Below are positions 3,485-45,295 of a stretch of 64,000 nucleotides of DNA, one piece after another. Under the pieces are notes generated by a model. It had not been told where the DNA came from, did no database searches, and saw only the letters and a program-made list of their open reading frames with translations. Position numbers and translations under genes: made by a program. Within the stretch, counting starts at the first letter, position 1; the number at the start of each line of letters is the position of its first letter. Origin of the DNA: Spirochaetota bacterium (lineage in GTDB: Bacteria; Spirochaetota; GWB1-36-13; JAKPDD01); the NCBI GenBank assembly GCA_029552945.1, contig JAKPDD010000046.1, positions 139,612 to 203,611 of the forward strand, in the 5' to 3' direction.

Positions 3485-4468
3485 ATGGAAAATTATAGAG
3501 GAGTATTAGTTTTTGCTGAACAGAGAGAGGGAAATTTACAGAATGTTGCACTTGAGCTTTTAGGTGAAGCAAGAAAAATAGCAAATAAATTAAATGTTGA
3601 AGTTAGTGCACTTTTGGTGGGACATAAGATAGAAAAATTAGCAGATGCTTTATTTGAATATGGAGCTGATAAGGTTTATGTTGTTGATGATAAAGATTAT
3701 AACTATTATTCAACTGATCATTATGCTCATGTTTTTACTGAGGCGATAAAACAATTAAAACCAGAAATAGTATTAATAGGTGCAACAAGTATAGGTAGAG
3801 ACCTTGCTCCGAGAGTTTCAGCAAGACTTGGAACAGGGCTTACAGCTGACTGTACATCTCTTGATGTTGATGTGGAAAAAAGGTTATTGCTTCAGACAAG
3901 ACCTGCATTTGGTGGTAATGTAATGGCAACTATTATATGCCCTAATCATAGGCCTCAAATGGCAACTGTAAGGCCAGGTGTTATGGAAAAAAATTATGAA
4001 AAAGGTAGAACTGGGAAAGTAGAAAAATTAAATATACCTAAGATAGAATCCAAGGTTAAAGTGCTTAATGTTGTAAAAGAGGCTAAAAAAGCTGTTTCAT
4101 TAAGTGAAGCTAAGGTAATAGTTGCAGGTGGTAGAGGAGTTGGTTCAAAAGAGGGATTCAAACTTATAGAGGAACTTGCTAAGGTTTTAGGGGGTGAGGT
4201 AGGAGCATCAAGGGCTGCTGTTGAAGCTGGTTATATAACAAAAGACCATCAGGTTGGACAAACTGGACAAACTGTTAAACCAGAACTATATATTGCATGT
4301 GGTATATCTGGTGCAATACAACACTTGGCTGGTATGCAATCATCAAGAACAATAATAGCAATAAACAAAGACCCTAATGCACCAATATTCAAAGTATGTG
4401 ATTATGGCATTGTTGGAGAAATAAAAGAGGTTATACCTGCTCTTATTGAAGAGCTAAAAAATAAATAA
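3485..4468 (+). CDS. etfA: Electron transfer flavoprotein alpha subunit
   Basis: 327 aa; EtfA FAD-binding region (AVGASRAAVEAGY, YIACGISGAIQHLAGM); RBS GGGGG. Confidence 0.9.
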   Translation: MENYRGVLVFAEQREGNLQNVALELLGEARKIANKLNVEVSALLVGHKIEKLADALFEYGADKVYVVDDKDYNYYSTDHYAHVFTEAIKQLKPEIVLIGATSIGRDLAPRVSARLGTGLTADCTSLDVDVEKRLLLQTRPAFGGNVMATIICPNHRPQMATVRPGVMEKNYEKGRTGKVEKLNIPKIESKVKVLNVVKEAKKAVSLSEAKVIVAGGRGVGSKEGFKLIEELAKVLGGEVGASRAAVEAGYITKDHQVGQTGQTVKPELYIACGISGAIQHLAGMQSSRTIIAINKDPNAPIFKVCDYGIVGEIKEVIPALIEELKNK

Positions 4469-4482
4469 TATGGAGGAAATTA

Positions 4483-4911
4483 ATGGAGATAATAGGAGTT
4501 ACAGTTGATAATATAAAAGTAGGTGATAAGGCAGCTATAAGAAAGACTATAACTGAGGCAGATATATTAATGTTTGCTGCTGTTTCAACAGATGCAAATC
4601 CTGCACATATAGATGAAGAATATGCAAAAAATACAATATTTAAAAAGAGAATTGCACACGGTGCTTTAACAAGTAGTTTAGTTTCAGCTGTTCTTGGAAT
4701 GAAACTACCTGGCCCTGGTACAATATATATAAGTCAGACTTCAAAGTTCCTTGCACCTGTATATATTGGTGATACTATAACTGCTATAGTTGAAGCAAAA
4801 GAGGTAAATACAGAAAAAAATAGAGTTGTTTTCAGAACATACTGTGAAAATCAGGAAGGAAAAATTGTTATGGATGGCGAAGCTGTTGTTATGCCACCAA
4901 AGAAAAAATAG
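4483..4911 (+). CDS. MaoC-like (R)-specific enoyl-CoA hydratase / dehydratase
   Basis: 142 aa hot-dog-fold protein (FAAVSTDANPAHIDEEYA, IAHGALTSS); last gene of the bcd-etf cluster. Confidence 0.75.
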   Translation: MEIIGVTVDNIKVGDKAAIRKTITEADILMFAAVSTDANPAHIDEEYAKNTIFKKRIAHGALTSSLVSAVLGMKLPGPGTIYISQTSKFLAPVYIGDTITAIVEAKEVNTEKNRVVFRTYCENQEGKIVMDGEAVVMPPKKK

Positions 4912-4930
4912 AATAAGTTTTTAAATTAGA

Positions 4931-4949
4931 TGGAGGGATATTCCCTCCA
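4931..4949. terminator. Bidirectional stem-loop between convergent genes (TGGAGGGA-TAT-TCCCTCCA)
   Basis: 8-bp inverted repeat with 3-nt loop, flanked by A/T-rich sequence; lies between the MaoC stop and the stop of the minus-strand gene. Confidence 0.5.
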
Positions 4950-4954
4950 CATTT

Positions 4955-5590
4955 CTATTGAATTACTATTTTATTTTTATCTATAACAATATCACCTAAG
5001 TCTAACATAGAATTTATAAGGAAAATTTTGTCAAAAAATTTTAAGTCTTTAAGTTTTATTTCTTCTTCTATTATTATTCCTTTTATTAGTAATTCTTCTC
5101 TTTTTGTGCCTTCAAGTAGTGGTGTATTTGGTGTTATAAGTTTTTTTCTATCTGATAATACTATATTTGTATAAGTTGTATCTGTTAGGTAACCATTCTT
5201 TACTATTATTATTTCATCTTTATCTTTTTTTAACTCATTAAATATATTTCTGTCGACTGATTTATATTTATAATCAATATTATTACATTCTATTACGAAT
5301 ATTTTGTCTATATTTTTTATTCTGTATTTTTCTATATCTATCTTTATAATTTCATTAGAGTATACTATTCTTATTTTATATCTGTCTTTATTATCTGGTT
5401 TATCTATTTTTTTTAACTCTTTTTCAAGGTTTAATGGAGTATTATAGGGAAAAAAGACTTTAAATACTTTATTTACTCTTTTTTGATGTAGATCTAAGTT
5501 TATAATTTTGTTGTTTTCATATCGTATTGTTTCTATGAATTGGTACATATATTTTATCCAATAGTTCTTGATATTCTTTTTTAGGATCAC
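4955..5590 (-). CDS. Class IV aminotransferase-fold protein, probable aminodeoxychorismate lyase (PabC-like)
   Basis: 211 aa; directly downstream of the pabB-like gene on the same strand, overlapping it by 74 nt, so the true start is probably an internal Met; short for the family. Confidence 0.45.
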   Translation of the reverse strand: MILKKNIKNYWIKYMYQFIETIRYENNKIINLDLHQKRVNKVFKVFFPYNTPLNLEKELKKIDKPDNKDRYKIRIVYSNEIIKIDIEKYRIKNIDKIFVIECNNIDYKYKSVDRNIFNELKKDKDEIIIVKNGYLTDTTYTNIVLSDRKKLITPNTPLLEGTKREELLIKGIIIEEEIKLKDLKFFDKIFLINSMLDLGDIVIDKNKIVIQ

Positions 5591-8257: not shown

Positions 8258-8623
8258 ATGAAAAGAGTACTTGTAATTGATGACTCTAATGTTATAAAAG
8301 CAAACACTGAGAGTATAATAACAAAAAATGGATTTGAGTTTGAACATGCTTTTGATGGTAAAGAAGCAATTAATATATTAAAGGCTGGATTTGAACCGAA
8401 TATTATAATTTGTGATATTAATATGCCTAATATGGATGGGCTTGAGTTTTTAGAATGGGTAAAAAACGAAGATAATTTTAAGTTTATTCCAGTAGTAATG
8501 CTAACAACTGAAACAGAAATACAGTTAATGCAAAAAGCTAAAAAACTTGGAGCATCTGGCTGGATAATTAAGCCTTTTGATGAGGATACACTGATCGAAG
8601 TAATAAAAAAATTTATAAGGTAA
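8258..8623 (+). CDS. Single-domain CheY-like response regulator receiver
   Basis: 121 aa; receiver motifs (VLVIDDS, IIICDINMPNMDG, KPFD). Confidence 0.8.
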   Translation: MKRVLVIDDSNVIKANTESIITKNGFEFEHAFDGKEAINILKAGFEPNIIICDINMPNMDGLEFLEWVKNEDNFKFIPVVMLTTETEIQLMQKAKKLGASGWIIKPFDEDTLIEVIKKFIR

Positions 8624-8627
8624 TATC

Positions 8628-9557
8628 ATGTGGATAATAGATATTATAAAAACATCTGGTAAAACAGGTTTTGAGATTGGTGTATACATATTACTTCCTA
8701 TTCTTGTTGTAATGATGGCTTTTATGAGACTTATTGAAAAAAAAGGGATATTAGTAAAAATCGCATTTATTACTTCTCCTGTTATGTTTTTTTCAGGTTT
8801 ACCTGCTATAGGACTTTTTGCTGTTCTTCAGATACTTTTTGTAAACTTTGCTGCTCCCCTTGCTACACTTGCTATAATGGAAGAAGATGATTCGATATCA
8901 GAAAGAGAGGTTGCAGCAGTTCTTGCTGTAATATTTTCAATGCCTCAGGCAAATGCTACTTTTCCATTGACACTAAAGGGATTGAATCTTGGTATAACAA
9001 TTTTTTTTGCTTTAATATCTATGTTTTTGACCGGTATGATAACTTACCATTTACTTACAAGAAATATGGGGGACCATTCTCTTAAGCTCTTAAAAAAAAT
9101 AAATTATCAAAAGTCAAATGAAAAAATATTGAGAATAATTATGGACTCGGGTGCGGAGGGTTTCAGACTTGCTTTAAACTCTATTCCAATGATAATCATC
9201 GCATTATTTATAGTAAATGTTCTTAAGGGTATTGGTTTTATAGAGTTTCTTGAAAGTGTTTTAAAACCAGTGTTTTCTCATTTAGGAATACCTTCTATAA
9301 CAGTTTTACCTGTGGTTACAAAGTATATTGCAGGTGGTACTGCAATGATGGGAGTTACTATCGACTTAATGGATAAAGGTCTTTTAAATAGTCTTGACCT
9401 TAACAGAATAGCAGGGTTTGTTATTAATCCACTTGATCCTGTTGGTGTTGCTATACTTGCAAGTAGTTCTAAAACTTCTAGAGTCTTAAAAAAAGCAATA
9501 ATGGGTGGTATAATAGGAATACTTATAAAAGGTATTTTACATATAATATATTTTTAG
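8628..9557 (+). CDS. Polytopic membrane protein, nucleoside-recognition (Gate) domain-like
   Basis: 309 aa with multiple TM helices; 4 nt after the CheY-like gene; family assignment by pattern only. Confidence 0.4.
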   Translation: MWIIDIIKTSGKTGFEIGVYILLPILVVMMAFMRLIEKKGILVKIAFITSPVMFFSGLPAIGLFAVLQILFVNFAAPLATLAIMEEDDSISEREVAAVLAVIFSMPQANATFPLTLKGLNLGITIFFALISMFLTGMITYHLLTRNMGDHSLKLLKKINYQKSNEKILRIIMDSGAEGFRLALNSIPMIIIALFIVNVLKGIGFIEFLESVLKPVFSHLGIPSITVLPVVTKYIAGGTAMMGVTIDLMDKGLLNSLDLNRIAGFVINPLDPVGVAILASSSKTSRVLKKAIMGGIIGILIKGILHIIYF

Positions 9558-9565
9558 GTTTTATT

Positions 9566-11167
9566 ATGCTTTTTGTTTTTGACAAAAATTATAATCTTAT
9601 ATTTACCCAGTCTAAAGAATATAACTTTATTGAAGTATTAAGAGAGTTTGCATTATCTGATAAAAACTCTGAGACTATAAAATACGATGATAAAATTTAT
9701 TTTTTAACAAAGATCTCTGACTTAAATAATAATATTGCTATTAAAGTTGAAGATATTAGTGAAAATAAGATACCATCAGAAAAGTTGTTTAAATATTTTT
9801 TAAATGCGTTTGAACAGGCTTATGATGGGATTGTTATAACAGATGAAAATAATAATGTTATATATATAAACTCAAATTATGCAAGGTTTCTTGAAGTAAA
9901 TAAAGATGAGAGTATAGGTAAATATATAAAAGATGTTATAAAAGAGAGCAGAATACCTATAGTTTCTGAAACAAAAAAACCTGAAATTGGTTATGTTTGG
10001 GAAACAAAGGGAAAACCACTTCTTGTAAGTAGAATACCTCTTTTTGATAACGGCAGGTTTATAGGGGTTATAGGACTAATACTTTTTAGGAACTCAATAG
10101 AGGTTGCTCAATTTTTAAAAAAGATAGAGAAGATAGAAAAAGAGCTTGCATATTATAAAGAGTCTCAAAATTCAGATTGGTCAGCTAAATATGATTTTGG
10201 ATTTATAAAAACAAGAAGTAAGGAGGTTATTGGGATAATTGAAAGAGCAAAGAAGATTGCAGTAACTAATTCAAACGTTATTATAACTGGGGAGAGTGGG
10301 ACAGGAAAAGAGATTATTGCTCATGCAATACACCTGGCTAGTCCAAGGAGTAATAAACCTTTTGTAAGAATAAACTGTAGTGCTATTCCTGAAGAGCTTT
10401 TTGAATCAGAATTTTTTGGTTATGAAAAGGGTGCTTTTACAGGTGCAAAAGACTTAAAACAAGGAAAGTTTGAAATTGCAAACAGTGGTACTCTATTTCT
10501 TGATGAGATAGGAGACCTTCCTTTAAAAATGCAGGCAAAACTTCTTAGAGTTATCCAGGAAGGAGAAATTGAAAGAGTAGGCGGGACTAAACCTATTAGT
10601 GTTGATGTAAGGATAATTGCTGCAACTAATAAAAACCTTAAAGAACTTATTGAAAGAGGTTTGTTCAGAGAAGACCTTTATTATAGACTATCAGTTTTTC
10701 AAATTAATATGATACCTTTAAGAGAGAGGGTTGAAGATATAAGACTTTTATTTGATTATTTTTTAAAAGAATACATGGATAATATAGGATTCTGCGATAT
10801 AGCAGTTGATGAAGAGGTTTATAATATACTTGAAAAATATTCATGGCCAGGTAATGTTAGAGAATTGAAAAATGTAGTTGAAACTGTAAGTGTATCTCTT
10901 GAAGGATATAAGATAGGGCTTAAAGATATACCAGGTTATATTTTAAACTTTGAACTTAGTAAAAATGTAAAAGATTTAGATAAAAATTATTATAATCGTT
11001 ATAATAATATAAAGGAATATAAAACATCTATATTTGAGCTTGAAAAAAAATTGATAATAGATGCTTTGAATAAAGCTAACGGGAACAAGAAAAAAGCTGC
11101 CAAACTTCTTGGAATAGCAAGGAGCTTGTTATACAAAAAGATAAAAGACTTTGGAATTGAATTATGA
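9566..11167 (+). CDS. Sigma-54-dependent transcriptional activator with N-terminal PAS-like sensor, AAA+ domain and C-terminal HTH
   Basis: 533 aa; Walker [15 protein letters not shown] motif (YEKGAFTGA), arginine finger region, C-terminal Fis-like HTH; no receiver domain. Confidence 0.9.
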   Translation: MLFVFDKNYNLIFTQSKEYNFIEVLREFALSDKNSETIKYDDKIYFLTKISDLNNNIAIKVEDISENKIPSEKLFKYFLNAFEQAYDGIVITDENNNVIYINSNYARFLEVNKDESIGKYIKDVIKESRIPIVSETKKPEIGYVWETKGKPLLVSRIPLFDNGRFIGVIGLILFRNSIEVAQFLKKIEKIEKELAYYKESQNSDWSAKYDFGFIKTRSKEVIGIIERAKKIAVTNSNVIITGESGTGKEIIAHAIHLASPRSNKPFVRINCSAIPEELFESEFFGYEKGAFTGAKDLKQGKFEIANSGTLFLDEIGDLPLKMQAKLLRVIQEGEIERVGGTKPISVDVRIIAATNKNLKELIERGLFREDLYYRLSVFQINMIPLRERVEDIRLLFDYFLKEYMDNIGFCDIAVDEEVYNILEKYSWPGNVRELKNVVETVSVSLEGYKIGLKDIPGYILNFELSKNVKDLDKNYYNRYNNIKEYKTSIFELEKKLIIDALNKANGNKKKAAKLLGIARSLLYKKIKDFGIEL

Positions 11168-11179
11168 ATCATATTTTAA

Positions 11180-11196
11180 TGTCTATAAAGTAGACA
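11180..11196. promoter_or_regulatory. Inverted repeat TGTCTA-N5-TAGACA (candidate enhancer-binding protein site 1)
   Basis: Perfect 6-bp arms with 5-bp spacer; about 190 bp upstream of the candidate -24/-12 element. Confidence 0.45.
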
Positions 11197-11203
11197 AACA
11201 TTA

Positions 11204-11220
11204 TGTCTAATATATAGACA
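11204..11220. promoter_or_regulatory. Inverted repeat TGTCTA-N5-TAGACA (candidate enhancer-binding protein site 2)
   Basis: Identical arms and spacing to site 1, 24 bp downstream of it. Confidence 0.45.
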
Positions 11221-11306
11221 CTAATAGGTACAAATTAAATTCATTGTGTTTTCATACATTTTTATTATTATTGTTTATCTTTTACTTTAGTTTTTATTTT
11301 TCTATA

Positions 11307-11323
11307 TGTCTAAAATAGGGACA
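11307..11323. promoter_or_regulatory. Degenerate third copy TGTCTA-N5-GGGACA
   Basis: Left half-site identical, right half-site matches 4 of 6. Confidence 0.25.
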
Positions 11324-11373
11324 CTATCTTTTTTAAATATATATAAAGTATTGATTATCAAATATTTATATTT

Positions 11374-11389
11374 TGGAACAATTTTTGAC
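11374..11389 (+). promoter_or_regulatory. Candidate sigma-54 (-24/-12) promoter TGGAAC-N5-TTGA
   Basis: GG and the -12 element at canonical spacing; deviates from TGGCAC-N5-TTGC at two positions; about 45 nt upstream of the ATG at 11436. Confidence 0.3.
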
Positions 11390-11435
11390 TATAATGTAAT
11401 TGCTTGTTAACAAAAAAATAACTGGAGGTGTCTTG

Positions 11436-11894
11436 ATGAAAATTAAGTTAAGTGAAAATGCAAAGACCATATTACATGTGGTCAATGCTATTCTCTGGAT
11501 ATGGCTTTTGATAGCCAGCTGGTCTAAAAATGAGGATCTACTAAAAATTACTTTCTTTGTAATGCCTTTTATTGTATTTTTCTATTTATTGATGGGAATT
11601 GAAAAGAGAAATGAAGTAAAATCACCTGTCCCATTATTTTATCCTGCTATAACTCTTTTTATTGTTTGGGTTGTCTCTTTTTATCTTGTTTTAAGTTATA
11701 GAGGAATATCTGTTGATCCTTCTGATTTTATTTTAGGTATGCATCCTTCTATGGCAGCTGCTCTACTTATTTTTTGGATTGGAAATCTTCTTACTACTGC
11801 TTTATCATATGTTCTATTTTTTGATGAGAGTGTTGATGAAAAAGAGTGGAATGATTTTCTTAATGAAGTAAGCAAATATCAAAAACTTAAATAG
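11436..11894 (+). CDS. Small membrane protein preceding the symporter (possible symporter accessory subunit)
   Basis: ORF track starts at TTG 11400; ATG at 11436 has RBS GGAGGTG; about 4 predicted TM helices; 10 nt before the symporter gene. Confidence 0.45.
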   Translation: MKIKLSENAKTILHVVNAILWIWLLIASWSKNEDLLKITFFVMPFIVFFYLLMGIEKRNEVKSPVPLFYPAITLFIVWVVSFYLVLSYRGISVDPSDFILGMHPSMAAALLIFWIGNLLTTALSYVLFFDESVDEKEWNDFLNEVSKYQKLK

Positions 11895-11904
11895 GGGGTG
11901 AACT

Positions 11905-13470
11905 ATGAAATTGGGTAAAATATTAGGAATTATTTTGTTTAATATTATCGCTTTTTCTTCTGTATTTGCTCAGGACAAAAAATTAACAGAATACATGGAA
12001 ACAAGTACTTTTACTGTGATTTATACTATAATGTTTTTATTAATATCTGTTTTATTAGGAGTATGGGCATCAAAGAAGGCTAAAACAGCGGAGGGTTTTT
12101 TTGGTGGAACAAAGTCTTTTGGTCCAATAACTATTGGGCTTGCTTCAATGGCTGCATTGATGAGTGCTTTTGGGTTTGTAGGGGGGCCAGGGCTTGTTTA
12201 TAAATTGGGTTTCTCTTCTATATGGATGACTATTGCATGTGGACCTGGTTTTGCTTATGCATACTGGATATTAGGTAAAAGAATGAGAGCTATGGCAGAA
12301 GTTACATCTGTTGCAACATTACCTGACATAGCAAGGGTAAGATATCAGTGTAATGCAATAAGAGCAATATTTGCTTTTGGCCTATTGATAGCAGCAATTG
12401 CATATCTTTCATCTCAGATGAAAGGTGCGGCAATGACTCTTGCTCAGATGTTGGGTGTATCTGAAACATGGGCAATAGTCATATTTATGGGTGTAATGCT
12501 TATATTCTTATTAAAAGCAGGTATGGCTGCAAGTATAGTAACAGATGCTTTTCAAGGCTTAATAATGCTTATAGGTGTTTTTGCTGTTGTGATTGGTTTC
12601 TTCATATTAACTAAAGGTGATGCTATGGTCTCTATTGCCCAGGCTCAAAACCTTGGAACAAAATATGTTGATGGTATTGGTGCTGCACCATTACAGACAA
12701 TAATAACATTTACAATTGTATTTTTTGTATTTGTAATGTCTCAGTCAACAATGTTAAGTAAGATGTATACTGTTAAGAGCTATAAAGGACTAAAGCAGGC
12801 AGGTCTTTTAAGTGGTGTAACTTATGCTATGGCATCACTTGTATGGATCCTAGTAGGATATGGTGCTCTATATTTGCTTGCTCAGGGTAGGATAGAACCA
12901 CTTCAAAAGGCTGATAATGCTGCTTTTGTTTTTTTAAATGCACTTGAGTCACCAATAATTTCTACATTAGTTATGGCCTCACTCTTTGCTGCTACAATAT
13001 CCACAGCAAGTTACTTTTTAACTTTAGCATCTTCAAGTATTACTAGAGATATATTAGGTTCTTTTGGTGTTGAATTATCACAAGAAAAACAGATAGCATG
13101 GGGAAGAGTAATAATGATTTTAATAGCATTACTGTCTATTGGATTTGCTTATTGGGGAACCGATATGGTTGCTATATTAGGTACAATAGGATGGGGATTT
13201 TTTGCATCTGTTAACTTCCCAACACTTACACTTGGATTATTATGGAAAAGAACAAGTAGAGAGGGTGTACTAACAGGTATAATTCTTGCAATACTCTTAA
13301 ATATCCTCCTACCAATACTTGATAGAACAGGTATATATAAACTACCTTTCCCATATTACACACTCTCAATAGTTGTTTCAATATCAGCAACTGTTTTTGT
13401 ATCATTGTTTACTAAAGGTTCTGCAGGTGATAATCTACCTGAACCTATAAAACCAATATTTAAACTCTAA
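11905..13470 (+). CDS. Sodium:solute symporter (SSS family) transporter
   Basis: 521 aa with about 13 TM helices and SSS-like organisation; RBS GGGGGTG. Confidence 0.8.
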   Translation: MKLGKILGIILFNIIAFSSVFAQDKKLTEYMETSTFTVIYTIMFLLISVLLGVWASKKAKTAEGFFGGTKSFGPITIGLASMAALMSAFGFVGGPGLVYKLGFSSIWMTIACGPGFAYAYWILGKRMRAMAEVTSVATLPDIARVRYQCNAIRAIFAFGLLIAAIAYLSSQMKGAAMTLAQMLGVSETWAIVIFMGVMLIFLLKAGMAASIVTDAFQGLIMLIGVFAVVIGFFILTKGDAMVSIAQAQNLGTKYVDGIGAAPLQTIITFTIVFFVFVMSQSTMLSKMYTVKSYKGLKQAGLLSGVTYAMASLVWILVGYGALYLLAQGRIEPLQKADNAAFVFLNALESPIISTLVMASLFAATISTASYFLTLASSSITRDILGSFGVELSQEKQIAWGRVIMILIALLSIGFAYWGTDMVAILGTIGWGFFASVNFPTLTLGLLWKRTSREGVLTGIILAILLNILLPILDRTGIYKLPFPYYTLSIVVSISATVFVSLFTKGSAGDNLPEPIKPIFKL

Positions 13471-13549: not shown

Positions 13550-15091
13550 ATGAAAGCTAGAATAGTGTCTGCTGAAGAGGCTGTTAAAAACATAAAGTCT
13601 GGTGATGTTGTTGCAACAGAAGGTTTTGTTGGCAATGGTTTTGCAGAGGAGATTGCGATAGCATTAGAGAAGAGGTTTATTGAAACTGGAGAACCAAGGG
13701 ATCTTACTTTGATATATGCTGCTGGTCAGGGGGATGGTAAAGAGAAAGGATTAAATCACCTTGCATATGAAGGACTTGTAAAAAGAGTGATTGGCGGTCA
13801 CTGGGGGCTTGCACCAAAGTTGGGTAAAATGGCACTTGAAAACAAAATAGAGGCATATAACCTTCCGCAGGGGTGTATATCACACCTTTTTAGAGCTATA
13901 GCTGGTAAAAGACCAGGGCATATTACTCATGTTGGACTTGGAACATTTGTTGATCCAAGAATAAGTGGCGGGAAAATGAATGAAAGGACAAAAGAGGATA
14001 TCGTAAAACTTATAGAGATTGATGGTAAAGAGTATCTTTTTTATAAGTCTATACCAATAGATGTTGCTATATTAAGGGGTACAACAGCGGATACAAGGGG
14101 AAATGTTACACTGGAAAAAGAGGCTCTTACACTTGAGAATCTTTCTATGGCTCAAGCAGCTAAAAACTCAGGGGGGATTGTTATAGTTCAGGTTGAAAGA
14201 ATTGCTGAAGCAGGATCTTTGGCTGCAAGAGATGTAAAAATACCAGGAATTCTTGTAGATTTTATTGTTGTTGCTAAGCCAGAAAATCACTGGCAAACAT
14301 TTTCAGAAAAATATAATCCTGCTTATAGCTGTGAGATAAAAATACCATTATCTGCTATAACTCCATTACCGCTTGATGAAAGAAAGATAATTGGAAGAAG
14401 AGCTGCAATGGAGCTTGTTGAGGGTTCTGTTGTTAATCTTGGTATAGGAATGCCAGAAGCAGTTGGGGTTGTTGCAGCTGAGGAAGGAATATTAAATAAT
14501 TTTATTCTTACTGTTGAACCAGGACCAATAGGGGGAGTACCGGCAGGTGGTTTAAGTTTTGGTGCTTCTTCTAATATGGAAGCATTAGTTGACCAACCCT
14601 ATCAATTTGACTTTTATGATGGTGGGGGACTTGACCTTGCTTTTTTAGGGCTTGCTCAGGTTGATCAGTTTGGAAATATTAATGTAAGTAAGTTTGGACC
14701 AAGGTTTGCAGGTGCAGGTGGTTTTATAAACATAACACAAAATGCTAAAAAAGTTTTCTTCCTTGGTACATTTACTGCAGGTGATTTACAGGTTGAAGTA
14801 AAAGATACTAAATTAAAAATAGTACAGGAAGGAAAGACAAGAAAGTTTGTAAGAAATGTTGAACATATAACTTTTAGTGGTGAATATGCAAAAAAAGTTA
14901 AAAGGCCAGTACTTTATATTACAGAGAGAGCAGTGTTCAAATTAACTGATGAAGGACTTGAACTTATTGAAATTGCACCTGGTATAGATATAGAAAAAGA
15001 TATATTAACACATATGGACTTTAAACCAATAATAAAGTCACCAAAGATTATGGATACTAGAATATTTAAAAAAGATAAAATGGGTCTATAA
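13550..15091 (+). CDS. Acyl-CoA:acetate/3-ketoacid CoA-transferase family protein (fused two-domain type)
   Basis: 513 aa; CoA-transferase family I features in both halves (GGxWG-like region HWGLAPKLG); RBS AGGAGG. Confidence 0.75.
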
Positions 15092-19697: not shown

Positions 19698-20618
19698 ATG
19701 AAAAAGATTGAAAAAATATCAACTGTTTTTATGTTCATAGGTTTTTTTATGATATTAACAATATTTATCCTTTTAGGTAAACAAAAGAAAATACTATATT
19801 CTAAAATTAACTTTTATACAATTATAAACACAGTAAAGGATGTAAACTCAGGACAGGATATACTATTGTTAGGCCCTGATACCCCTATTGGTAAGGTAAC
19901 AGGCTTTTCTGTAACTAAAGAGAATAAAGTTAAGGTTGAATTTTTTATATATAGTGAGTTTATAGATAAAATTAGAGAGGATTCGGCAATAGTTTTTATT
20001 CCACCTGCTTTGGGTTTTTTAGGGGGCATTACTATAAAAATGGTGCCAGGTACAGAGTATTATGCGATAAAAAAGGAGGGGGATGTAATACCATCAAATC
20101 ATATGTATGAAGGTGAATTCTTGCTTACATTAAGGGGAGTAAAAGGGAGTGATGATAAAATACCACTCCTTGATAAAGTTGGGCCATTACTTGAAAATAT
20201 TACCTCTGTTTTAGACCCAAAAGGGCCTTTTATGAGAAACTTGACTAATCTTACTTATTATCTTAGTATTTTTTCTATGCAATTAAGTCAGGGCGGTCTA
20301 TTTTCTGTTATTGGAAGTAATACAATAAAGACAAATATTGAAAGAATGATGGCTCAGATAAACTCTATATTAGCAACAAGTGATACTATTATGGCAAATG
20401 ATGTAAGAAACTCATTAGCAAGGGTGAACTTACTTCTAAATAATATAAAAACTTTAACAGATACAATAAATTATAATACTCCAAGGACAATGTCACAAAT
20501 AAATCTTATTCTATTTAGGCTTGAAAGAATGATTGCAAACCTTGAAAAAAGCCCACTATTTGGTGCAACTGGAACAAGAAAAACAGAAAAAAAACAGGAT
20601 ATTTTCATTGGAGAATAA
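19698..20618 (+). CDS. MCE/MlaD-like membrane-anchored protein
   Basis: 306 aa; N-terminal TM helix, MCE-like beta region, helical C-terminus; assignment by pattern only. Confidence 0.4.
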   Translation: MKKIEKISTVFMFIGFFMILTIFILLGKQKKILYSKINFYTIINTVKDVNSGQDILLLGPDTPIGKVTGFSVTKENKVKVEFFIYSEFIDKIREDSAIVFIPPALGFLGGITIKMVPGTEYYAIKKEGDVIPSNHMYEGEFLLTLRGVKGSDDKIPLLDKVGPLLENITSVLDPKGPFMRNLTNLTYYLSIFSMQLSQGGLFSVIGSNTIKTNIERMMAQINSILATSDTIMANDVRNSLARVNLLLNNIKTLTDTINYNTPRTMSQINLILFRLERMIANLEKSPLFGATGTRKTEKKQDIFIGE

Positions 20619-21963
20619 AGATAATAGAGGTACCATACTTGTTGTTGATGATGATTTAAGTGTAAGAGAGTTAATAAAGAATTTTCTTGAGAAAAACTCT
20701 TATAGAGTTTTAATTTCTGAAAACTGGATAAAAGCTGAACCTCTTATCTTAAAAAATAAGATTGATATTATCCTTTTAGATATTAATCTCCCATTTAAGA
20801 GTGGAATTGAAGTATTAAAAGAGAACAAAGATAGGTTTTTGGATACAAAAGTTATAATTTTTTCAGGCAAAAATGATATTGAACTTGCTGTTGAGGCTAT
20901 AAAGCTTGGTGCATTTGATTATGTTCAGAAGACAGACTCTATTGAAAAGATATTAAAAGTTATAGATAATGCTTTGAAGCTTAAAGTTCTTGAGGAAGAA
21001 AATAAGATTTTGAAAAAGAATTTAGCTCCTTTGAAATATATCAAAGGTATATCAAAGTTTTCTGAAGAGATAGATAAACTTATAAAAACAGCAGCCAGAA
21101 CTGATGCAACCGTACTTATTACCGGTGAAAATGGGACAGGAAAACAGGTAGTAGCAGAGACTATTCATAGTATGTCTTTAAGAAAACATGGGCCGTTTAT
21201 TGACATAAACTGTGCTGCAATACCTGAAACCTTACTTGAGAGTGAACTATTCGGGTATAAAAAAGGTGCTTTTACTGGAGCATATCAGGATACAAAAGGT
21301 AAGTTTGAGGCAGCATCAGGTGGTACAATATTTTTAGATGAGATAAGTGAAATACCAATAAGTTTACAGGCAAAGTTGTTAAAGGTTATTGAAAATAAAG
21401 AGTTTACTCCCTTAGGCTCAACACAAGTAAAAAAGCTTAATGCAAGAATAATAGCAGCTACTAATAAGAATCTAGAGGAGGAAATTTCAAATGGTAAATT
21501 CAGACAGGATCTTTTTTATAGATTAAATGTTATAAATATAAGTCTTTTGCCTTTAAGGGAAAGAAGAGATGATATACCTATATTACTTGAAAGGTTTATA
21601 AATAGTTCTGGTAAAGATATAAAATTAAGTAAGGATGCAATACAAATACTTATAGAATATGATTGGCCAGGTAATATTAGAGAGCTTAAAAACTTTGTTG
21701 AAAGGTGTACAGTCATGTCAGAGTCTGAACTAATAACCAAAGATGATGTTATAAAGTTTTTAAACCTCCGTAAAAATAATATTTTTCTTTCAATTCCAAA
21801 TTGTCATAATATAATGCCTTTAAAAGAGTTTCTAGAATGTAAAGAAAAAGAATATCTTGAGTTTATTGTATCAAGATATAAATATAAAAAAGAGATTGCT
21901 AGAATACTTAATATAGAAAGGACTGCTCTTTATAGAAAACTAAAAAAATATAATATCCAATAA
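20608..21963 (+). CDS. Sigma-54-dependent response regulator (receiver, AAA+, HTH; NtrC family)
   Basis: ORF track starts at 20533; a TTG at 20608 with RBS AGGA gives MENKDNRGTILVVDDD, a typical receiver start; GENGTGKQ, GAFTGA, C-terminal HTH. Confidence 0.85.
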   Translation: MENKDNRGTILVVDDDLSVRELIKNFLEKNSYRVLISENWIKAEPLILKNKIDIILLDINLPFKSGIEVLKENKDRFLDTKVIIFSGKNDIELAVEAIKLGAFDYVQKTDSIEKILKVIDNALKLKVLEEENKILKKNLAPLKYIKGISKFSEEIDKLIKTAARTDATVLITGENGTGKQVVAETIHSMSLRKHGPFIDINCAAIPETLLESELFGYKKGAFTGAYQDTKGKFEAASGGTIFLDEISEIPISLQAKLLKVIENKEFTPLGSTQVKKLNARIIAATNKNLEEEISNGKFRQDLFYRLNVINISLLPLRERRDDIPILLERFINSSGKDIKLSKDAIQILIEYDWPGNIRELKNFVERCTVMSESELITKDDVIKFLNLRKNNIFLSIPNCHNIMPLKEFLECKEKEYLEFIVSRYKYKKEIARILNIERTALYRKLKKYNIQ

Positions 21964-22594: not shown

Positions 22595-23230
22595 ATGATT
22601 AAAATTAAAGGAATTATTGTTGATTTTGATGGTACACTTATTGATACAATGGAACATTTTAAAAAAGTTGCAGGTATTATAATAAACAAATACTATAAAA
22701 TACCAATAGAGGAGGCTGAAAGACTTTATATAGAGACTTCAGGTGTTGCTTTTGTAAGACAAATGGAGATTATAAAACCTGGTGGAGATATGAATAGTAT
22801 TGTTGTAAAAGAGTTTGAAGAACTTAAACTTAAAGGTATCGAAAATGAAAAGATTGATGATGACTCTATTTTTACTCTTAATAAACTTAAAGATAGAGGT
22901 ATAAAACTTGGAATATCATCAGGTAATTTTGAAGATGTGATAATAAGGTTTCTTGAAAAAGAAAACTTTATTTTTGATGTTGTTATGGGTCATAGGGAAG
23001 GATTTGAAAAAGGCTCTGCTCATTTTCAATATTTTCTTGAAAAAACAGGACTTTCAAAGAATGATATTATTTTTATTGGAGATTCTATAAAAGATGGTGA
23101 GAGGGCTTATAGCTTTGGTATAAAGTTTATAGCTAAAGAGGGGATATTTTCTTCTGATAGATTTAAAAAAGAGTTCGGAGAGAACCAAATTGTTATAAAA
23201 AAACTCTCCGAAGTCCTTAATTTTGTTTAA
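22595..23230 (+). CDS. HAD superfamily hydrolase
   Basis: 211 aa; motif I DFDGTLIDT at the N-terminus and a GDS..D motif near the C-terminus. Confidence 0.7.
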   Translation: MIKIKGIIVDFDGTLIDTMEHFKKVAGIIINKYYKIPIEEAERLYIETSGVAFVRQMEIIKPGGDMNSIVVKEFEELKLKGIENEKIDDDSIFTLNKLKDRGIKLGISSGNFEDVIIRFLEKENFIFDVVMGHREGFEKGSAHFQYFLEKTGLSKNDIIFIGDSIKDGERAYSFGIKFIAKEGIFSSDRFKKEFGENQIVIKKLSEVLNFV

Positions 23231-34414: not shown

Positions 34415-35848
34415 ATGGGGAGTTTAAAGGAATATGTTGAATTGCTTATAATAGATGATGAAGAGATTACAGGACTTACTATAAGAGATTATTTTAGAGC
34501 AATAAGTGGAGAAAGCGTATCTTATAATGTTTCATATTTTTCTGACTCAAAAGAGGGTTTTGAATATTTCAAAAATAATGATATTGATGTTGTTATACTT
34601 GATATAATGTTGAAAGAAGGTGATGGGATGGAACTTTTAAAGAAAATGAAGTCTTATAAACCTGAAACTGAGATAATTATTCTTACTGGCTATGGTAGTG
34701 GTGATAAAAGTATTACTGCACTAAGGTTGGGTGCTTTTGATTTTTTAAGTAAACCTTTTGGACTTACTTCACTTGAAAAAATAATACTTAAGGCTTACAG
34801 TAAAAAAATAATGGCAACTGAAAACAGGATAACAAGCATAATAGAGAATAAAATTTCTGAACTTGAAAAGTCTATTGGCAAAGAGGAGAGTTTTATTGGC
34901 AATGATTCAAAAATAAAAGAGATAATAGGGCTTGTATCAGAGATATCTAAGACAGATTGTAATGTACTTATTCAGGGAGAAAGTGGAACAGGTAAAGAAC
35001 TTATAGCAAGACTTATACATAAGAGTAGCCTTAGGAGTCAAGAACTTTTTTTCCCTATAAACTGTGGTGCAATACCTGAGAACCTTCTTGAGTCCGAACT
35101 TTTTGGTTATGAGAAAGGTGCATTTACTGGTGCTACTAACAGAAAACTTGGTCTATTTGAAGTTGCAACAAAAGGTACAATATTTCTTGATGAAATAGGG
35201 GACCTTCCTATAACATTCCAGGTTAAATTACTTAGAGTTCTTGAAAGAGGTGAGTTTAATAGGGTTGGTGGAACAAAAATACTTAAAACTGAAGCAAGAA
35301 TAATATCAGCAACAAATAAGGACCTTAAAAAAGAGGTTGAAGAGGGTCTTTTTAGAAGGGATCTTTATTACAGGCTTAATGTTATAACAATTACCCTTCC
35401 ACCTTTAAGAGAGAGGAAGGCAGATATACCTTTACTTATTGAATATTTTATTAAGAAAAATGAGAGAAATACTAACAGAAAAATTGAAATATCAAAAGAG
35501 GCCATGCAAATTTTAATTAATTATAATTGGCCAGGAAATGTAAGAGAACTTCAAAATGTTGTAGATAGAATAATAATATTAACTAATAATAATGTTGTGA
35601 CGCCAGAAACAGTTACAAGAGCTCTATCTATGCACGATAACTCTTCTCAATTAATTTCAATAGACAATAAAGATTATGTTCAACTTGTTAGAAAAGACGA
35701 ACTTATAACTCTTGAAGAATTGGAGAAGAGGTATATATCATATTTATATAAAAAAACAGGGGCTAATAAAAGTAAGACTGCCTATCTACTTGGTATATCT
35801 GAGAGAACACTTTATAGAAAGATGAAGCAATATGATATTGATTTTTAG
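34415..35848 (+). CDS. Sigma-54-dependent response regulator (NtrC family)
   Basis: 477 aa; receiver (LLIIDDEE, VVILDIML), [15 protein letters not shown]-terminal HTH. Confidence 0.9.
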   Translation: MGSLKEYVELLIIDDEEITGLTIRDYFRAISGESVSYNVSYFSDSKEGFEYFKNNDIDVVILDIMLKEGDGMELLKKMKSYKPETEIIILTGYGSGDKSITALRLGAFDFLSKPFGLTSLEKIILKAYSKKIMATENRITSIIENKISELEKSIGKEESFIGNDSKIKEIIGLVSEISKTDCNVLIQGESGTGKELIARLIHKSSLRSQELFFPINCGAIPENLLESELFGYEKGAFTGATNRKLGLFEVATKGTIFLDEIGDLPITFQVKLLRVLERGEFNRVGGTKILKTEARIISATNKDLKKEVEEGLFRRDLYYRLNVITITLPPLRERKADIPLLIEYFIKKNERNTNRKIEISKEAMQILINYNWPGNVRELQNVVDRIIILTNNNVVTPETVTRALSMHDNSSQLISIDNKDYVQLVRKDELITLEELEKRYISYLYKKTGANKSKTAYLLGISERTLYRKMKQYDIDF

Positions 35849-44300: not shown

Positions 44301-45295
44301 TGAGAAGTAACTTTGCTTTCTATTTTTTTAATTCTCCTTATGAGGATCCTGTTCTTTATGTGGAGCAGCTTAATTCAAGAGATAACCTTGTTTTTGATCT
44401 TGGTGATGTATCAAAAGTACCTAATTCTCTACTTATGAGAATAAAGTGGGTTTTTATATCCCATGCCCATATAGACCATTTTTGTGGTTTTGTAAAGTTT
44501 TTAAGGACAATCTTAAAAATTGTTGGCAAAGAGGTATATGTCTTTGGACCTGAAGGTATTGCTGATAATGTGGAAGGGGTCTTAAAATCATTTACTTGGA
44601 ATCTTATAGATAATTATAACATTAAGTTTTATGTAAAAGAGATAGGGAGCAGAATAAAAACATACTTTTTTTCTTCATCTGAAAAGTTTTCAAAAGAACT
44701 TATTTCTGAGAGTGATTTTACAGATTTAATTCTGGATGAAGAAAGTTTTCTAGTTAAAACCTCTATAATGGACCATAAAATACCTGTGTTAGGTTTTAGA
44801 CTTGAAGAAAAAAATAGATATGCTGTTGATAAAGAAAGACTTTTAGCATTTGAACTTAAGCCTGGTAAATGGCTTACTGATGTAAAAAAAAAATTAATTA
44901 AAGATGAGATTGATGATTATATCAAAGTTGATAATAAGGTTTTTAAAATAAGAGAACTTGTCGAGAGCAAAATACTTTTTCTCAAAAAAGCTCCCTCTCA
45001 TGCTTATATTACTGATATTGGTTTTACAAAAGATAATTTTATAAAGGCCTGTTCTCTGTCAAAAGATGTTAAAAACCTTTTTATAGAGACTCATTTTACC
45101 CATAAAGAGATTGATATGGCAAGAAAAACATATCATCTTACTGCTTATCAGGCTGGTATAATTGCAGGTGCATCAAGAGCTGAGAGGGTAAGAATATTTC
45201 ATTTTTCTCAAAGATATATTAAGAATAAAATAGGAGAGAAAGAACTTTATTATGAACTTAATAAAGCAAGGTCTTTATTTGGTTACAATTTTTAA
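44300..45295 (+). CDS. Metallo-beta-lactamase fold hydrolase (RNase Z-like)
   Basis: 331 aa; HxHxDH motif (ISHAHIDHFCGF); TAATG overlap with the hydE stop. Confidence 0.55.
   Translation: MRSNFAFYFFNSPYEDPVLYVEQLNSRDNLVFDLGDVSKVPNSLLMRIKWVFISHAHIDHFCGFVKFLRTILKIVGKEVYVFGPEGIADNVEGVLKSFTWNLIDNYNIKFYVKEIGSRIKTYFFSSSEKFSKELISESDFTDLILDEESFLVKTSIMDHKIPVLGFRLEEKNRYAVDKERLLAFELKPGKWLTDVKKKLIKDEIDDYIKVDNKVFKIRELVESKILFLKKAPSHAYITDIGFTKDNFIKACSLSKDVKNLFIETHFTHKEIDMARKTYHLTAYQAGIIAGASRAERVRIFHFSQRYIKNKIGEKELYYELNKARSLFGYNF

What the first reader, a model, noticed from the sequence alone, without database searches (positions are those of the whole stretch)
11180..11323. Tandem TGTCTA-N5-TAGACA palindromes downstream of a sigma-54 activator gene
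Two perfect copies of the same inverted repeat (11180-11196 and 11204-11220) and a third degenerate copy (11307-11323) lie between the activator gene and the symporter/CoA-transferase operon. Repeated identical arms fit binding sites for a dimeric HTH regulator better than terminator hairpins, and they sit at enhancer distance (about 60-190 bp) from the candidate -24/-12 element.
Basis: seen in the sequence. Interest (0 to 1): 0.5.

Follow-up and report, generated by a model that had tools for sequence, protein, structure and literature searches.

The report
Enhancer sites for a sigma-54 activator
The repeated TGTCTA-N5-TAGACA palindromes are real and are most likely the docking sites (enhancer) of the sigma-54 activator encoded just upstream, which switches on a carboxylate-uptake/CoA-transferase operon; this is a normal, well-known type of bacterial gene switch in an uncultured low-GC bacterium.

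Summary
Observation confirmed. Exact TGTCTA-N5-TAGACA occurs only at 11180-11196 and 11204-11220 in the 64 kb window (0 expected), with a 2-mismatch copy at 11307-11323.

The sites lie between a PAS/AAA+(GAFTGA)/Fis-HTH activator gene (9566-11167) and an operon of a 152-aa membrane protein, an SSF symporter and a FadX-like CoA-transferase.

Interpretation supported. Four lineages carry orthologous activators (74-48% identity, identical recognition helix GIARSLLYKK). In each, the otherwise diverged intergenic region keeps three things:
- a TGTC(T/C)A-N5-T(A/G)(G/A)ACA site just after the activator stop codon;
- a second site 59-73 bp upstream of the promoter;
- a -24/-12 element.

Each region has 2-3 hits against about 0.02 expected.

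Independently, tandem TGTCTA palindromes in other metagenome contigs sit a fixed 53-57 bp from sigma-54 promoters, often near NtrC-type activator genes.

The motif is a TGT-N11-ACA site, the class predicted for 15 clostridial activator groups and validated for AdhR.

Caveats: the window's own -12 reads TTGA, not TTGC; binding is untested; rpoN was not seen.

Verdict: ordinary architecture, new member of a known kind.

The parts
9566..11167 (+). Gene for the enhancer-binding protein (533 aa): N-terminal unknown region plus PAS, AAA+ sigma-54 interaction domain with GAFTGA, and a C-terminal Fis-type HTH (…AAKLLGIARSLLYKKIKDFG)
   Evidence: Pfam hits; translation; GAFTGA at about 10430. The best NCBIfam hit is PrdR at 454 bits, below the 795 cut-off.
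11180..11196 (.). Distal UAS site 1, perfect palindrome TGTCTA-TAAAG-TAGACA, 13 nt after the activator stop codon; centre about 187 bp upstream of the -24 GG
   Evidence: The orthologous position is conserved in L001, L004 and L037.
11204..11220 (.). Distal UAS site 2, perfect palindrome TGTCTA-ATATA-TAGACA; 24 bp centre-to-centre from site 1; centre about 163 bp upstream of the -24 GG
   Evidence: The equivalent second site is perfect in L001 at 7615.
11307..11323 (.). Proximal UAS site 3, TGTCTA-AAATA-GGGACA (2 mismatches in the right arm); centre about 60 bp upstream of the -24 GG
   Evidence: A proximal site lies 59-73 bp upstream of -24 in all four orthologous intergenic regions.
11351..11361 (.). 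Its centre is 19-20 bp upstream of the -24 GG in all four orthologs. It overlaps a match to the IHF-type consensus WATCAANNNNTTR (11356-11368). Its role is unknown.
   Evidence: Alignment A3 and coordinates read. It is not enriched in the window as a whole, so the evidence is positional conservation only.
11374..11389 (+). Candidate sigma-54 promoter TGGAAC-AATTT-TTGAC (-24 GG at 11375-76; -12 reads GA instead of GC); inferred start site near 11400
   Evidence: It aligns with TGGAATGATAATTGCA (L001), TGGCACGCTTTATGCA (L004) and TGGCACAGATCATGAT (L037). No sigma-70-like promoter was found on the + strand in 11000-11500.
11436..11894 (+). First operon gene: 152-aa membrane protein without a family hit (ATG at 11436 preceded by GGAGG; the mechanical ORF list starts at TTG 11400)
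   Evidence: The same 152-aa gene is called in L005/L006. It is syntenic in L001 and L004.
11905..13470 (+). Sodium:solute symporter family transporter (521 aa), below all equivalog cut-offs; distant to PutP, PanF, MctC and ActP
13550..15091 (+). Fused family-I CoA-transferase (513 aa), FadX-like (446 bits, cut-off 750)

Best explanation
The three palindromes are the upstream activator sequences (enhancer) of the PAS-AAA+-HTH enhancer-binding protein encoded immediately upstream.

Inferred mechanism:
- Dimers of the activator bind each TGTC(T/C)A-N5-T(A/G)(G/A)ACA dyad through the C-terminal Fis-type HTH.
- A signal sensed by the N-terminal/PAS module, probably the transported carboxylate or a derivative, lets the AAA+ domains assemble. 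Three dimers would make one hexamer.
- The AT-rich DNA between the distal pair (about -210/-185), the proximal site (about -85) and the promoter loops, possibly helped by a protein bound at the conserved -44 palindrome.
- The GAFTGA loops contact sigma-54 holoenzyme sitting at TGGAAC-N5-TTGAC.
- ATP hydrolysis opens the promoter and transcribes the 152-aa membrane protein / SSF symporter / CoA-transferase operon, for uptake and CoA activation of a short-chain carboxylic acid.

Shown: the sites, their statistical non-randomness, the domain content of the activator, and conservation of sites and promoter in orthologs.

Inferred: binding, hexamer assembly, looping, the signal and the substrate.
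For: - Only two exact motif copies exist in 64 kb, with 0 in shuffles. Three hits at up to 2 mismatches fall in 268 bp against 0.019 expected.
- The activator has Sigma54_activat, AAA_lid_14 and HTH_8 domains and a GAFTGA loop.
- The orthologous loci are L001/L002/L003/L132 (74% identity), L004 (48%) and L037 (partial, same HTH). L001 and L004 keep the same gene order; L037 is too short to show the operon. All keep motif sites right after the stop codon and 59-73 bp upstream of a -24/-12 element. They have 3, 2 and 2 hits against about 0.015-0.025 expected, P<=2.5e-4 each.
- The recognition helix GIARSLLYKK is invariant across these proteins.
- About 340 kb of loci carrying unrelated PAS-type activators have no site at up to 1 mismatch. 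The three other GAFTGA activator genes in the window have no such site nearby.
- Independent metagenome loci with tandem TGTCTA palindromes have TGGCA(C/T)-N5-NTG at +53 to +57 in 56 of 166 distinct flanks, against about 0.1 expected. Receiver-AAA+-HTH_8 activator genes are adjacent or nearby.
- Literature: 15 clostridial activator groups are predicted to use TGT-N10-12-ACA sites. Multiple sites mostly lie 100-250 bp upstream of the promoter. Predicted PrdR sites read TGTCTA-N4-TTGACA (PMC6615313).
- AdhR needs three UAS sites and its DNA-binding domain shifts the fragment carrying them (PMC7017808). Table S3 of PMC6615313 lists the predicted AdhR sites as mostly 17-bp TGT-N11-ACA.
Against: - No binding or expression data exist.
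- The window's own -12 element is TTGA, not TTGC, and is not distinguishable from chance by sequence alone.
- rpoN was not seen in the window and the rest of the genome could not be searched.
- More distant activators with the same ARSLLY helix give weaker support. L159 has one 2-mismatch site plus TGGCACGGATTTTGT. L158 has none. L160 has one 2-mismatch site in a different intergenic region.
- Site-to-site and site-to-promoter spacings are not helically constant between orthologs: 24 versus 22 bp, and 59-73 bp.
- Activators with different recognition helices (PrdR-like; the Bacteroidota-like ITRQTLYNK type) are associated with very similar DNA motifs. The motif alone therefore does not identify which activator binds.
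Confidence: 0.8

Rival explanations
1. The palindromes are operators for a different dimeric transcription factor encoded elsewhere, for example a MerR-type GlnR/TnrA-like protein (box TGTNA-N7-TNACA, 17 bp) or a GntR/HutC-type protein (GTCTA/TAGAC half-sites). Such a factor would repress or co-regulate the operon independently of the adjacent activator.
For: The motif is 17 bp with TGT…ACA ends, like the TnrA/GlnR box, and it contains GTCTA/TAGAC, which resembles HutC-type half-sites (own knowledge, not tested). Similar motifs are associated with activators that have different recognition helices, so motif-to-protein assignment is not unique.
Against: Positions 5 and 13 are T and A, not the A and T required by TGTNA-N7-TNACA (sequence). 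The HutC core is contiguous, not split by 5 bp. No such regulator gene is adjacent in any ortholog. The only DNA-binding protein gene conserved next to the sites is the activator. Sites always co-occur with a -24/-12 element, both in the orthologs and in the independent metagenome set.
Confidence: 0.07
2. The two tandem palindromes act at the RNA level. Transcribed from the activator gene, they fold into one long hairpin that terminates or stabilises the 3' end of the RR-Gate-activator transcript.
For: The RNA of 11160-11260 folds so that site 1 pairs with site 2. The centroid is -14.4 kcal/mol, z = -2.46, and 5 of 200 shuffles fold as well. The hairpin starts 13 nt after the stop codon.
Against: No U-tract follows, and the terminator scan finds nothing at 11170-11330. 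Stems are AT-rich. L004 and L037 have a single distal palindrome and cannot form the long hairpin, yet they conserve the DNA motif. The third, proximal site and the fixed association with sigma-54 promoters are unexplained by an RNA role. A secondary insulating role in addition to the UAS role is not excluded.
Confidence: 0.05
3. The repeats are chance or neutral low-complexity palindromes in 28% GC DNA, or remnants of a small mobile element, and have no function.
For: The DNA is very AT-rich (GC 0.28). Hits with 2 mismatches occur elsewhere in the window at about the chance rate.
Against: There are 0 exact matches in shuffles against 2 observed. Positions are conserved in four lineages with 48-74% protein identity, and the spacer sequences differ, so the sites are not copies of one element.
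Confidence: 0.02

Closest known systems
Predicted PrdR upstream activator sites of Clostridioides difficile, C. botulinum and C. sporogenes (Nie et al. 2019, PMC6615313, Table S3)
   Same: The activator has a PAS-AAA+-Fis-HTH layout, and PrdR is the best-scoring named profile for the window protein. Sites read TGTCTAAATATTGACA, TGTCTATTTTTTGACA and TGTCTAATTATTGACA, so they share the TGTC…GACA dyad and the TGTCTA arm. Several sites lie 100-300 bp upstream of a TTGGCAT-N5-TTGCT promoter.
   Different: PrdR sites are 16 bp (TGTC-N8-GACA) with a TTGACA right arm; here they are 17 bp (TGTC-N9-GACA) with TAGACA. The window protein scores 454 bits, below the PrdR equivalog cut-off of 795. The target is a symporter/CoA-transferase operon, not prd genes. 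The organism is labelled Spirochaetota, not Clostridia.
AdhR and its three UAS sites upstream of adhA1/adhA2 in Clostridium beijerinckii (PMC7017808; sites listed in PMC6615313)
   Same: Three UAS sites lie upstream of a sigma-54 promoter. Table S3 of PMC6615313 lists the predicted sites as mostly 17-bp TGT-N11-ACA dyads, e.g. TGTCCTAAAAGCATACA. All three are needed for activation, and the isolated DNA-binding domain shifts the fragment. This is the best experimentally tested model for how the window's sites should work.
   Different: The sensor module differs (GAF+PAS), the inner bases of the dyad differ, and the target is an alcohol dehydrogenase. AdhR sites lie further upstream (about -200 to -380 from the start codon).
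NifA (TGT-N10-ACA) and FhlA upstream activator sequences of Proteobacteria
   Same: The TGT…ACA dyad is recognised by a Fis-type HTH of an enhancer-binding protein upstream of a -24/-12 promoter. Nie et al. make this comparison.
   Different: The spacing is N11 rather than N10. The phylum, sensor domains and regulon all differ.
AtoSC-AtoC control of atoDAEB in E. coli (own knowledge; the AtoC profile is the second-best NCBIfam hit)
   Same: The functional logic matches: a sigma-54 activator switches on a short-chain-carboxylate transporter plus a family-I CoA-transferase. Clostridial CrbR/XcgR regulons (cotX/cotY-gntT) have the same logic.
   Different: AtoC is a response regulator with a receiver domain and binds a different, longer inverted repeat. 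Here the sensor is N-terminal/PAS. The score is far below the AtoC cut-off (356 versus 714 bits).

Membership tests
Upstream activator sequence (enhancer) of a sigma-54 enhancer-binding protein | A cognate activator with an AAA+ sigma-54 interaction domain (GAFTGA) and a DNA-binding HTH, usually encoded next to the target | tested here: met
   Sigma54_activat E=4.9e-73, HTH_8 E=1.6e-13, GAFTGA present. The gene ends 13 nt before site 1.
Upstream activator sequence (enhancer) of a sigma-54 enhancer-binding protein | Dyad-symmetric sites, often several, roughly 80-250 bp upstream of the promoter | tested here: met
   Three 17-bp dyads have centres 187, 163 and 60 bp upstream of the -24 GG. This matches the distribution reported in PMC6615313.
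Upstream activator sequence (enhancer) of a sigma-54 enhancer-binding protein | A -24 GG / -12 GC promoter downstream of the sites and upstream of the target operon | tested here: inconclusive
   The window has TGGAAC-N5-TTGAC, with GA at -12 and 3 mismatches to consensus, which is not significant alone. It aligns with TGGAAT-N5-TTGCA (L001), TGGCAC-N5-ATGCA (L004) and TGGCAC-N5-ATGAT (L037). There is no sigma-70-like alternative on the + strand.
Upstream activator sequence (enhancer) of a sigma-54 enhancer-binding protein | Sites conserved in orthologous loci together with the activator's recognition helix | tested here: met
   Four lineages have 2-3 sites each against about 0.02 expected. 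The helix GIARSLLYKK is invariant. Support is weaker in the more distant L158-L160.
Upstream activator sequence (enhancer) of a sigma-54 enhancer-binding protein | Physical binding of the activator, and activator- and sigma-54-dependent transcription | not testable with these tools
   This needs EMSA or footprinting, reporter fusions and TSS mapping.
Upstream activator sequence (enhancer) of a sigma-54 enhancer-binding protein | rpoN (sigma-54) present in the genome | not tested
   No RpoN-box peptide was found in the 64-kb window. Four GAFTGA activator genes in 64 kb make rpoN very likely, but that is an inference.
PrdR regulon (proline reductase control) | The activator reaches the NCBIfam PrdR equivalog cut-off and controls prd genes | tested here: not met
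   The score is 454.6 bits against a cut-off of 795. Other PAS-type activators score similarly. The target genes are SSF and CoA_trans, not prd.
Rho-independent terminator | A G+C-rich stem-loop followed by a U-tract | tested here: not met
   The terminator scan finds no site at 11170-11330. The stems have 2 G-C pairs of 6 and no T-run follows. The long inter-site hairpin lacks a U-tract and is absent in L004 and L037.
TnrA/GlnR box | TGTNA-N7-TNACA | tested here: not met
   Positions 5 and 13 are T and A in both perfect copies. The consensus is from own knowledge.

The most novel reading that the evidence does not exclude
The enhancer may be more than three activator sites. All four orthologs also keep an 11-13 bp palindrome, (A)TTGA-N3-TCAA(T), centred 19-20 bp upstream of the -24 GG and overlapping an IHF-like WATCAANNNNTTR match. 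If a second protein binds there, such as an IHF/HU-type bender or a separate repressor or co-activator, this would be an unusually compact, dual-input sigma-54 promoter in a phylum (Spirochaetota-labelled MAG) where such promoters are unstudied. It would also tolerate a non-canonical -12 TGA. In addition, the same TGTCTA-N5-TAGACA dyad appears to be used by an unrelated receiver-type activator family in Bacteroidota-like gut contigs with a rigid 21-bp/55-bp geometry. This hints at a cross-phylum, convergent or ancestral 'TGTCTA' enhancer code for Fis-type HTH domains.
Probability: 0.3. Interest if true: 0.45.

Novelty: new member of a known kind. Interest (0 to 1): 0.3.

Why it matters
The finding assigns a specific DNA motif, TGTC(T/C)A-N5-T(A/G)(G/A)ACA, and a target operon to a previously uncharacterised activator group. 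That group is known only from metagenomes and has very few members in 5.8 billion proteins. The assignment lets the regulon be predicted in those genomes. It also adds a case of sigma-54 control of short-chain-carboxylate uptake and CoA activation outside Clostridia and Proteobacteria. The architecture itself is textbook, so the result is useful annotation rather than new biology. Two by-products are the parts a specialist might follow up: the conserved -44 palindrome, and the fixed-geometry TGTCTA enhancer upstream of MacB/FtsX transporter genes in gut Bacteroidota-like contigs.

Tried and rejected
- A search of the 5.8-billion-protein database with the activator's N-terminal 211 residues alone returned nothing, not even the parent protein. 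That search was wasted.
- The genome-contig scan used an N-terminal alignment (A2). None carries the motif. They served only as negative controls.
- Exact TGTCTA or TAGACA strings in the supplement of Nie et al. gave no identical site. The related PrdR sites were found only after allowing for OCR errors ('TGICTA').
- A literature search for TGTCTA/TAGACA plus sigma-54 found nothing relevant.
- I looked for a genome-specific -12 'TTGA' preference using two other window matches, at 22630 and 45760. Both lie inside ORFs and are probably chance, so the idea was dropped.
- The terminator reading was rejected.
- FNR/CRP identity for the -44 palindrome was rejected. The spacing is TTGA-N3-TCAA, not TTGAT-N4-ATCAA (own knowledge of the consensus).
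- PrdR membership was rejected.
- More distant activators with the ARSLLY helix (L158, L160) did not show the motif next to the gene.

Full report
**1. The observation**

The region was read directly.
- 11180-11196 is TGTCTA-TAAAG-TAGACA and 11204-11220 is TGTCTA-ATATA-TAGACA. Both are perfect 6+5+6 dyads.
- 11307-11323 is TGTCTA-AAATA-GGGACA, with two mismatches in the right arm.
- The exact pattern occurs only at these two places in the 64-kb window, and never in 100 dinucleotide-preserving shuffles.
- With up to two mismatches there are seven hits (3.9 expected). Three of them are in this 268-bp intergenic region.
- Shuffling the intergenic region alone gives 0.019 expected hits, and none of 20,000 shuffles reached three.

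**2. Surroundings**

- ORF 9566-11167 encodes a 533-aa protein with a PAS domain, a Sigma54_activat AAA+ domain (E=4.9e-73), AAA_lid_14 and a C-terminal HTH_8. It contains Walker A GESGTGKE and the sigma-54-contacting GAFTGA loop.
- It appears to be the last gene of a tight cluster, judged from the 4- and 8-nt intergenic gaps: stand-alone receiver domain (8258-8623), Gate-domain membrane protein (8628-9557), then the activator.
- Downstream are a 152-aa membrane protein without a family hit, an SSF symporter (11905-13470) and a fused family-I CoA-transferase (13550-15091). The true start of the 152-aa gene is ATG 11436, preceded by GGAGG. The same gene is called in L005/L006. The CoA-transferase is closest to staphylococcal FadX but below its cut-off.
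- The only GG-N10-G(C/A) element in the intergenic region is TGGAAC-AATTT-TTGAC at 11374-11389.
- The simple scans find no sigma-70-like promoter on the + strand and no terminator-like site at the palindromes.
- The window is 28% G+C and holds three further GAFTGA activator genes: 20533-21963, 34415-35848 and 45292-46701 on the minus strand. None has a TGTCTA dyad nearby.
- The exact protein is deposited as a 'Spirochaetota bacterium' MAG protein, GCA_035361555.1.

**3. Orthologous loci**

In the 5.8-billion-protein collection the activator has very few close relatives.
- P0002 (74% identity), P0003 (48%) and the partial P0061 (54% over the aligned 74% of the query) were found.
- P0121-P0123 are roughly 50% identical to P0003.
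- Contigs for P0002 (L001-L003; also L132) and P0003 (L004) have the same gene order: Gate, activator, intergenic region, about 150-aa protein, SSF, CoA_trans.
- P0061 lies on a 2.1-kb contig, L037.

The intergenic regions read as follows.

| Locus | Sites | Promoter |
|---|---|---|
| L001 | TGTCTATATTTTGTACA (6 nt after the stop); TGTCTATAAAATAGACA (22 bp further); TGTCTATTTTTTGGACA | TGGAATGATAATTGCA |
| L004 | AGTCCATATATTAGACA (overlapping the stop codon); TGTCCATATTATAAACA | TGGCACGCTTTATGCA |
| L037 | TGTCTATAAATTAGACA (19 nt after the stop); TGTCCATAATTCAGACA | TGGCACAGATCATGAT |

- In each locus the number of hits at up to 2 mismatches in the intergenic region is 3, 2 and 2. About 0.015-0.025 are expected, P<=2.5e-4 each, and there are 0-1 hits in the remaining DNA of each locus (about 1.7 kb in L037, about 13 kb in L001 and L004).
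- A MAFFT alignment of the four regions shows little conservation outside four islands: the distal site just after the stop codon, the proximal site 59-73 bp upstream of -24, a palindrome (A)TTGA-N3-TCAA(T), and the -24/-12 element.
- The invariant core of the sites is TGTC-N9-GACA.
- The recognition helix of the HTH, LGIARSLLYKK, is identical in all these proteins, although the proteins are only 48-74% identical overall.
- A more distant member, L159 (P0122, helix ARSLLYNK), also precedes a CoA_trans operon. It has one 2-mismatch site (TGTCCATTATCTAGACT) 106 bp upstream of TGGCACGGATTTTGT.
- Two others, L158 and L160, do not show the motif next to the activator gene.
- About 340 kb of loci carrying unrelated PAS-type activators contain no site at up to 1 mismatch.

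**4. An independent test from metagenomes**

A scan of metagenome contigs used TGTCTA-N5-TNNACA-N(4-9)-TGTCTA-N5-TAGACA, which has 22 specified bases.
- Only one, L132, belongs to the window's lineage.
- The others have 38-56% G+C, and many come from gut metagenome assemblies. They carry pairs of TGTCTAAT-N-ATTAGACA dyads, mostly in a strict 21-bp register.
- Twenty-three of them contain a receiver-AAA+-HTH_8 activator gene within the fetched stretch. It is often directly beside the pair or 1.8-2.9 kb downstream.
- Among 166 distinct oriented flanks, 56 have TGGCA(C/T)-N5-NTG starting 53-57 bp from the pair. The background rate of that pattern in the same loci predicts about 0.1.
- The genes behind these promoters encode MacB/FtsX-type ABC permeases, ABC ATPases and outer-membrane beta-barrels.
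- The scan took no account of gene content, yet tandem TGTCTA-N5-TAGACA dyads turned out to be strongly associated with sigma-54 promoters and enhancer-binding proteins.
- These activators have a different recognition helix (GITRQTLYNK). The dyad alone therefore does not specify which activator binds it.

**5. Comparison with what is known**

- Nie et al. (PMC6615313) reconstructed sigma-54 regulons in 57 Clostridiales. Fifteen activator groups use TGT…ACA dyads separated by 10-12 bp, like NifA and FhlA. Most target operons have several sites, mostly 100-250 bp upstream of TTGGCAT-N5-TTGCT.
- Their predicted PrdR sites include TGTCTAAATATTGACA, TGTCTATTTTTTGACA and TGTCTAATTATTGACA. They share the TGTCTA arm and TGTC…GACA core with the window's sites but are one base shorter.
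- PrdR is the best-scoring named profile for the window protein, but at 454 bits against a cut-off of 795. Other PAS-type activators score similarly. The protein is therefore not PrdR.
- For AdhR of C. beijerinckii, mutation of any of three UAS sites severely impaired activation, and the isolated DNA-binding domain shifted the fragment carrying them (PMC7017808). Table S3 of PMC6615313 lists the predicted AdhR sites as mostly 17-bp TGT-N11-ACA.
- Several clostridial regulons (CrbR, XcgR, YctR) and E. coli AtoC (own knowledge) couple a sigma-54 activator to a CoA-transferase plus a transporter. That is the logic seen here.
- A 2025 survey also lists CoA-transferase subunits and, in Bacteroidia, FtsX-type permeases among genes with predicted sigma-54 promoters. 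It does not treat UAS sites (PMC12316311).

**6. Mechanism**

*Shown:* three non-random dyads, an adjacent activator with all catalytic and DNA-binding motifs, and conservation of the dyads, their positions, a -24/-12 element and the recognition helix in four lineages.

*Inferred:*
- Activator dimers occupy the dyads.
- A ligand sensed by the N-terminal/PAS module permits hexamer formation, three dimers making one hexamer.
- The T-tract-rich spacer (11221-11306) loops.
- The GAFTGA loops remodel sigma-54 holoenzyme at 11374-11389.
- The membrane-protein/symporter/CoA-transferase operon is transcribed from about 11400.
- The substrate is probably a short-chain carboxylate, but it is unknown.

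I put 0.8 on the statement that these dyads are the UAS of the adjacent activator.

**7. Rivals**

- *Another transcription factor's operator (0.07).* The dyad fails the TnrA/GlnR consensus at positions 5 and 13 and does not have the contiguous HutC core. No such regulator is syntenic.
- *An RNA hairpin or terminator (0.05).* The two perfect copies can pair with each other, with a centroid of -14.4 kcal/mol and z of -2.46. There is no U-tract, and L004 and L037 cannot form it. A secondary insulating role is possible.
- *Chance or a mobile-element remnant (0.02).* This is contradicted.

**8. Weak points**

- The window's -12 is TTGA, as is L037's ATGA, instead of TTGC. By sequence alone the promoter is not significant.
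- rpoN was not found in the window, and the rest of the genome could not be read.
- Spacings between sites (24 versus 22 bp) and to the promoter (59-73 bp) are not helically constant.
- The more distant family members give mixed support.

**9. Verdict**

What it describes is a standard sigma-54 enhancer, so it counts as a new member of a known kind. Interest is 0.3. The less ordinary by-products are:
- the conserved TTGA-N3-TCAA palindrome 19-20 bp upstream of -24 (11351-11361), whose function is unknown;
- the tolerated -12 TGA;
- the fixed-geometry TGTCTA enhancer module in Bacteroidota-like gut contigs.

Noticed in passing
window 11351-11361 (extended 11350-11368); L001 7751-7761; L004 7822-7832; L037 1475-1485: An 11-13 bp palindrome, (A)TTGA-N3-TCAA(T), is conserved in all four orthologous intergenic regions. 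Its centre is 19-20 bp upstream of the -24 GG, and it overlaps a match to the IHF-type consensus WATCAANNNNTTR. It is not enriched elsewhere in the window (8 hits against 9.2 expected). Its function is unknown; it may be a DNA-bending protein site or a second regulator's operator.
   Followed up: partly
L038-L157 (except L132), e.g. L039 3243-3280, L053 2845-2882, L064 5482-5520, L047 7558-7595: Tandem TGTCTAAT-N-ATTAGACA dyads are widespread in 38-56% GC metagenome contigs, many from gut samples. They have Bacteroidota-like TAnnTTTG promoters nearby. The dyads sit in a 21-bp register, with a sigma-54 promoter (TGGCA(C/T)-N5-(T/C)TG) starting 53-57 bp away. The promoters lie upstream of MacB/FtsX-type ABC permease, ABC ATPase and outer-membrane beta-barrel genes, near receiver-AAA+-HTH_8 activators (…LGITRQTLYNKMKKYGL). 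I found no description of this UAS in the papers searched.
   Followed up: partly
window 9566-11167, 20533-21963, 34415-35848, 45292-46701(-): There are four GAFTGA-containing enhancer-binding protein genes in 64 kb of a 28% GC genome labelled Spirochaetota. This is an unusually high density. The other three are about 470 aa; their domains were not checked.
   Followed up: no
window 8258-9557; L001 4686-5992; L004 5029-5979: A Gate-domain (PF07670) membrane protein gene immediately precedes the activator gene in all lineages, separated by 8 nt in the window. A stand-alone receiver-domain protein precedes that in the window and in L001. These could be co-sensors for the activator; this was not examined.
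   Followed up: no
window 11387-11388; L037 1510-1512: The -12 element reads TGA instead of the near-invariant TGC in two of four orthologous promoters. This suggests that this promoter family tolerates loss of the -12 C.
   Followed up: partly
window 11180-11220: Because the two perfect dyads are identical, the transcript of this stretch can fold into one long hairpin in which site 1 pairs with site 2. The centroid is -14.4 kcal/mol and z is -2.46. No U-tract follows, and the hairpin is not conserved in L004 or L037.
   Followed up: partly
window 11400 vs 11436: The mechanical ORF list starts the first operon gene at TTG 11400, inside the promoter/5' leader. The start supported by the GGAGG ribosome-binding site and by gene calls in the public assemblies is ATG 11436, giving 152 aa.
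   Followed up: yes
window about 3500-5400 (L005 1-1346): ETF alpha and MaoC-dehydratase genes lie a few kb upstream of the locus. They may belong to the same short-chain acyl-CoA pathway as the regulated CoA-transferase.
   Followed up: no
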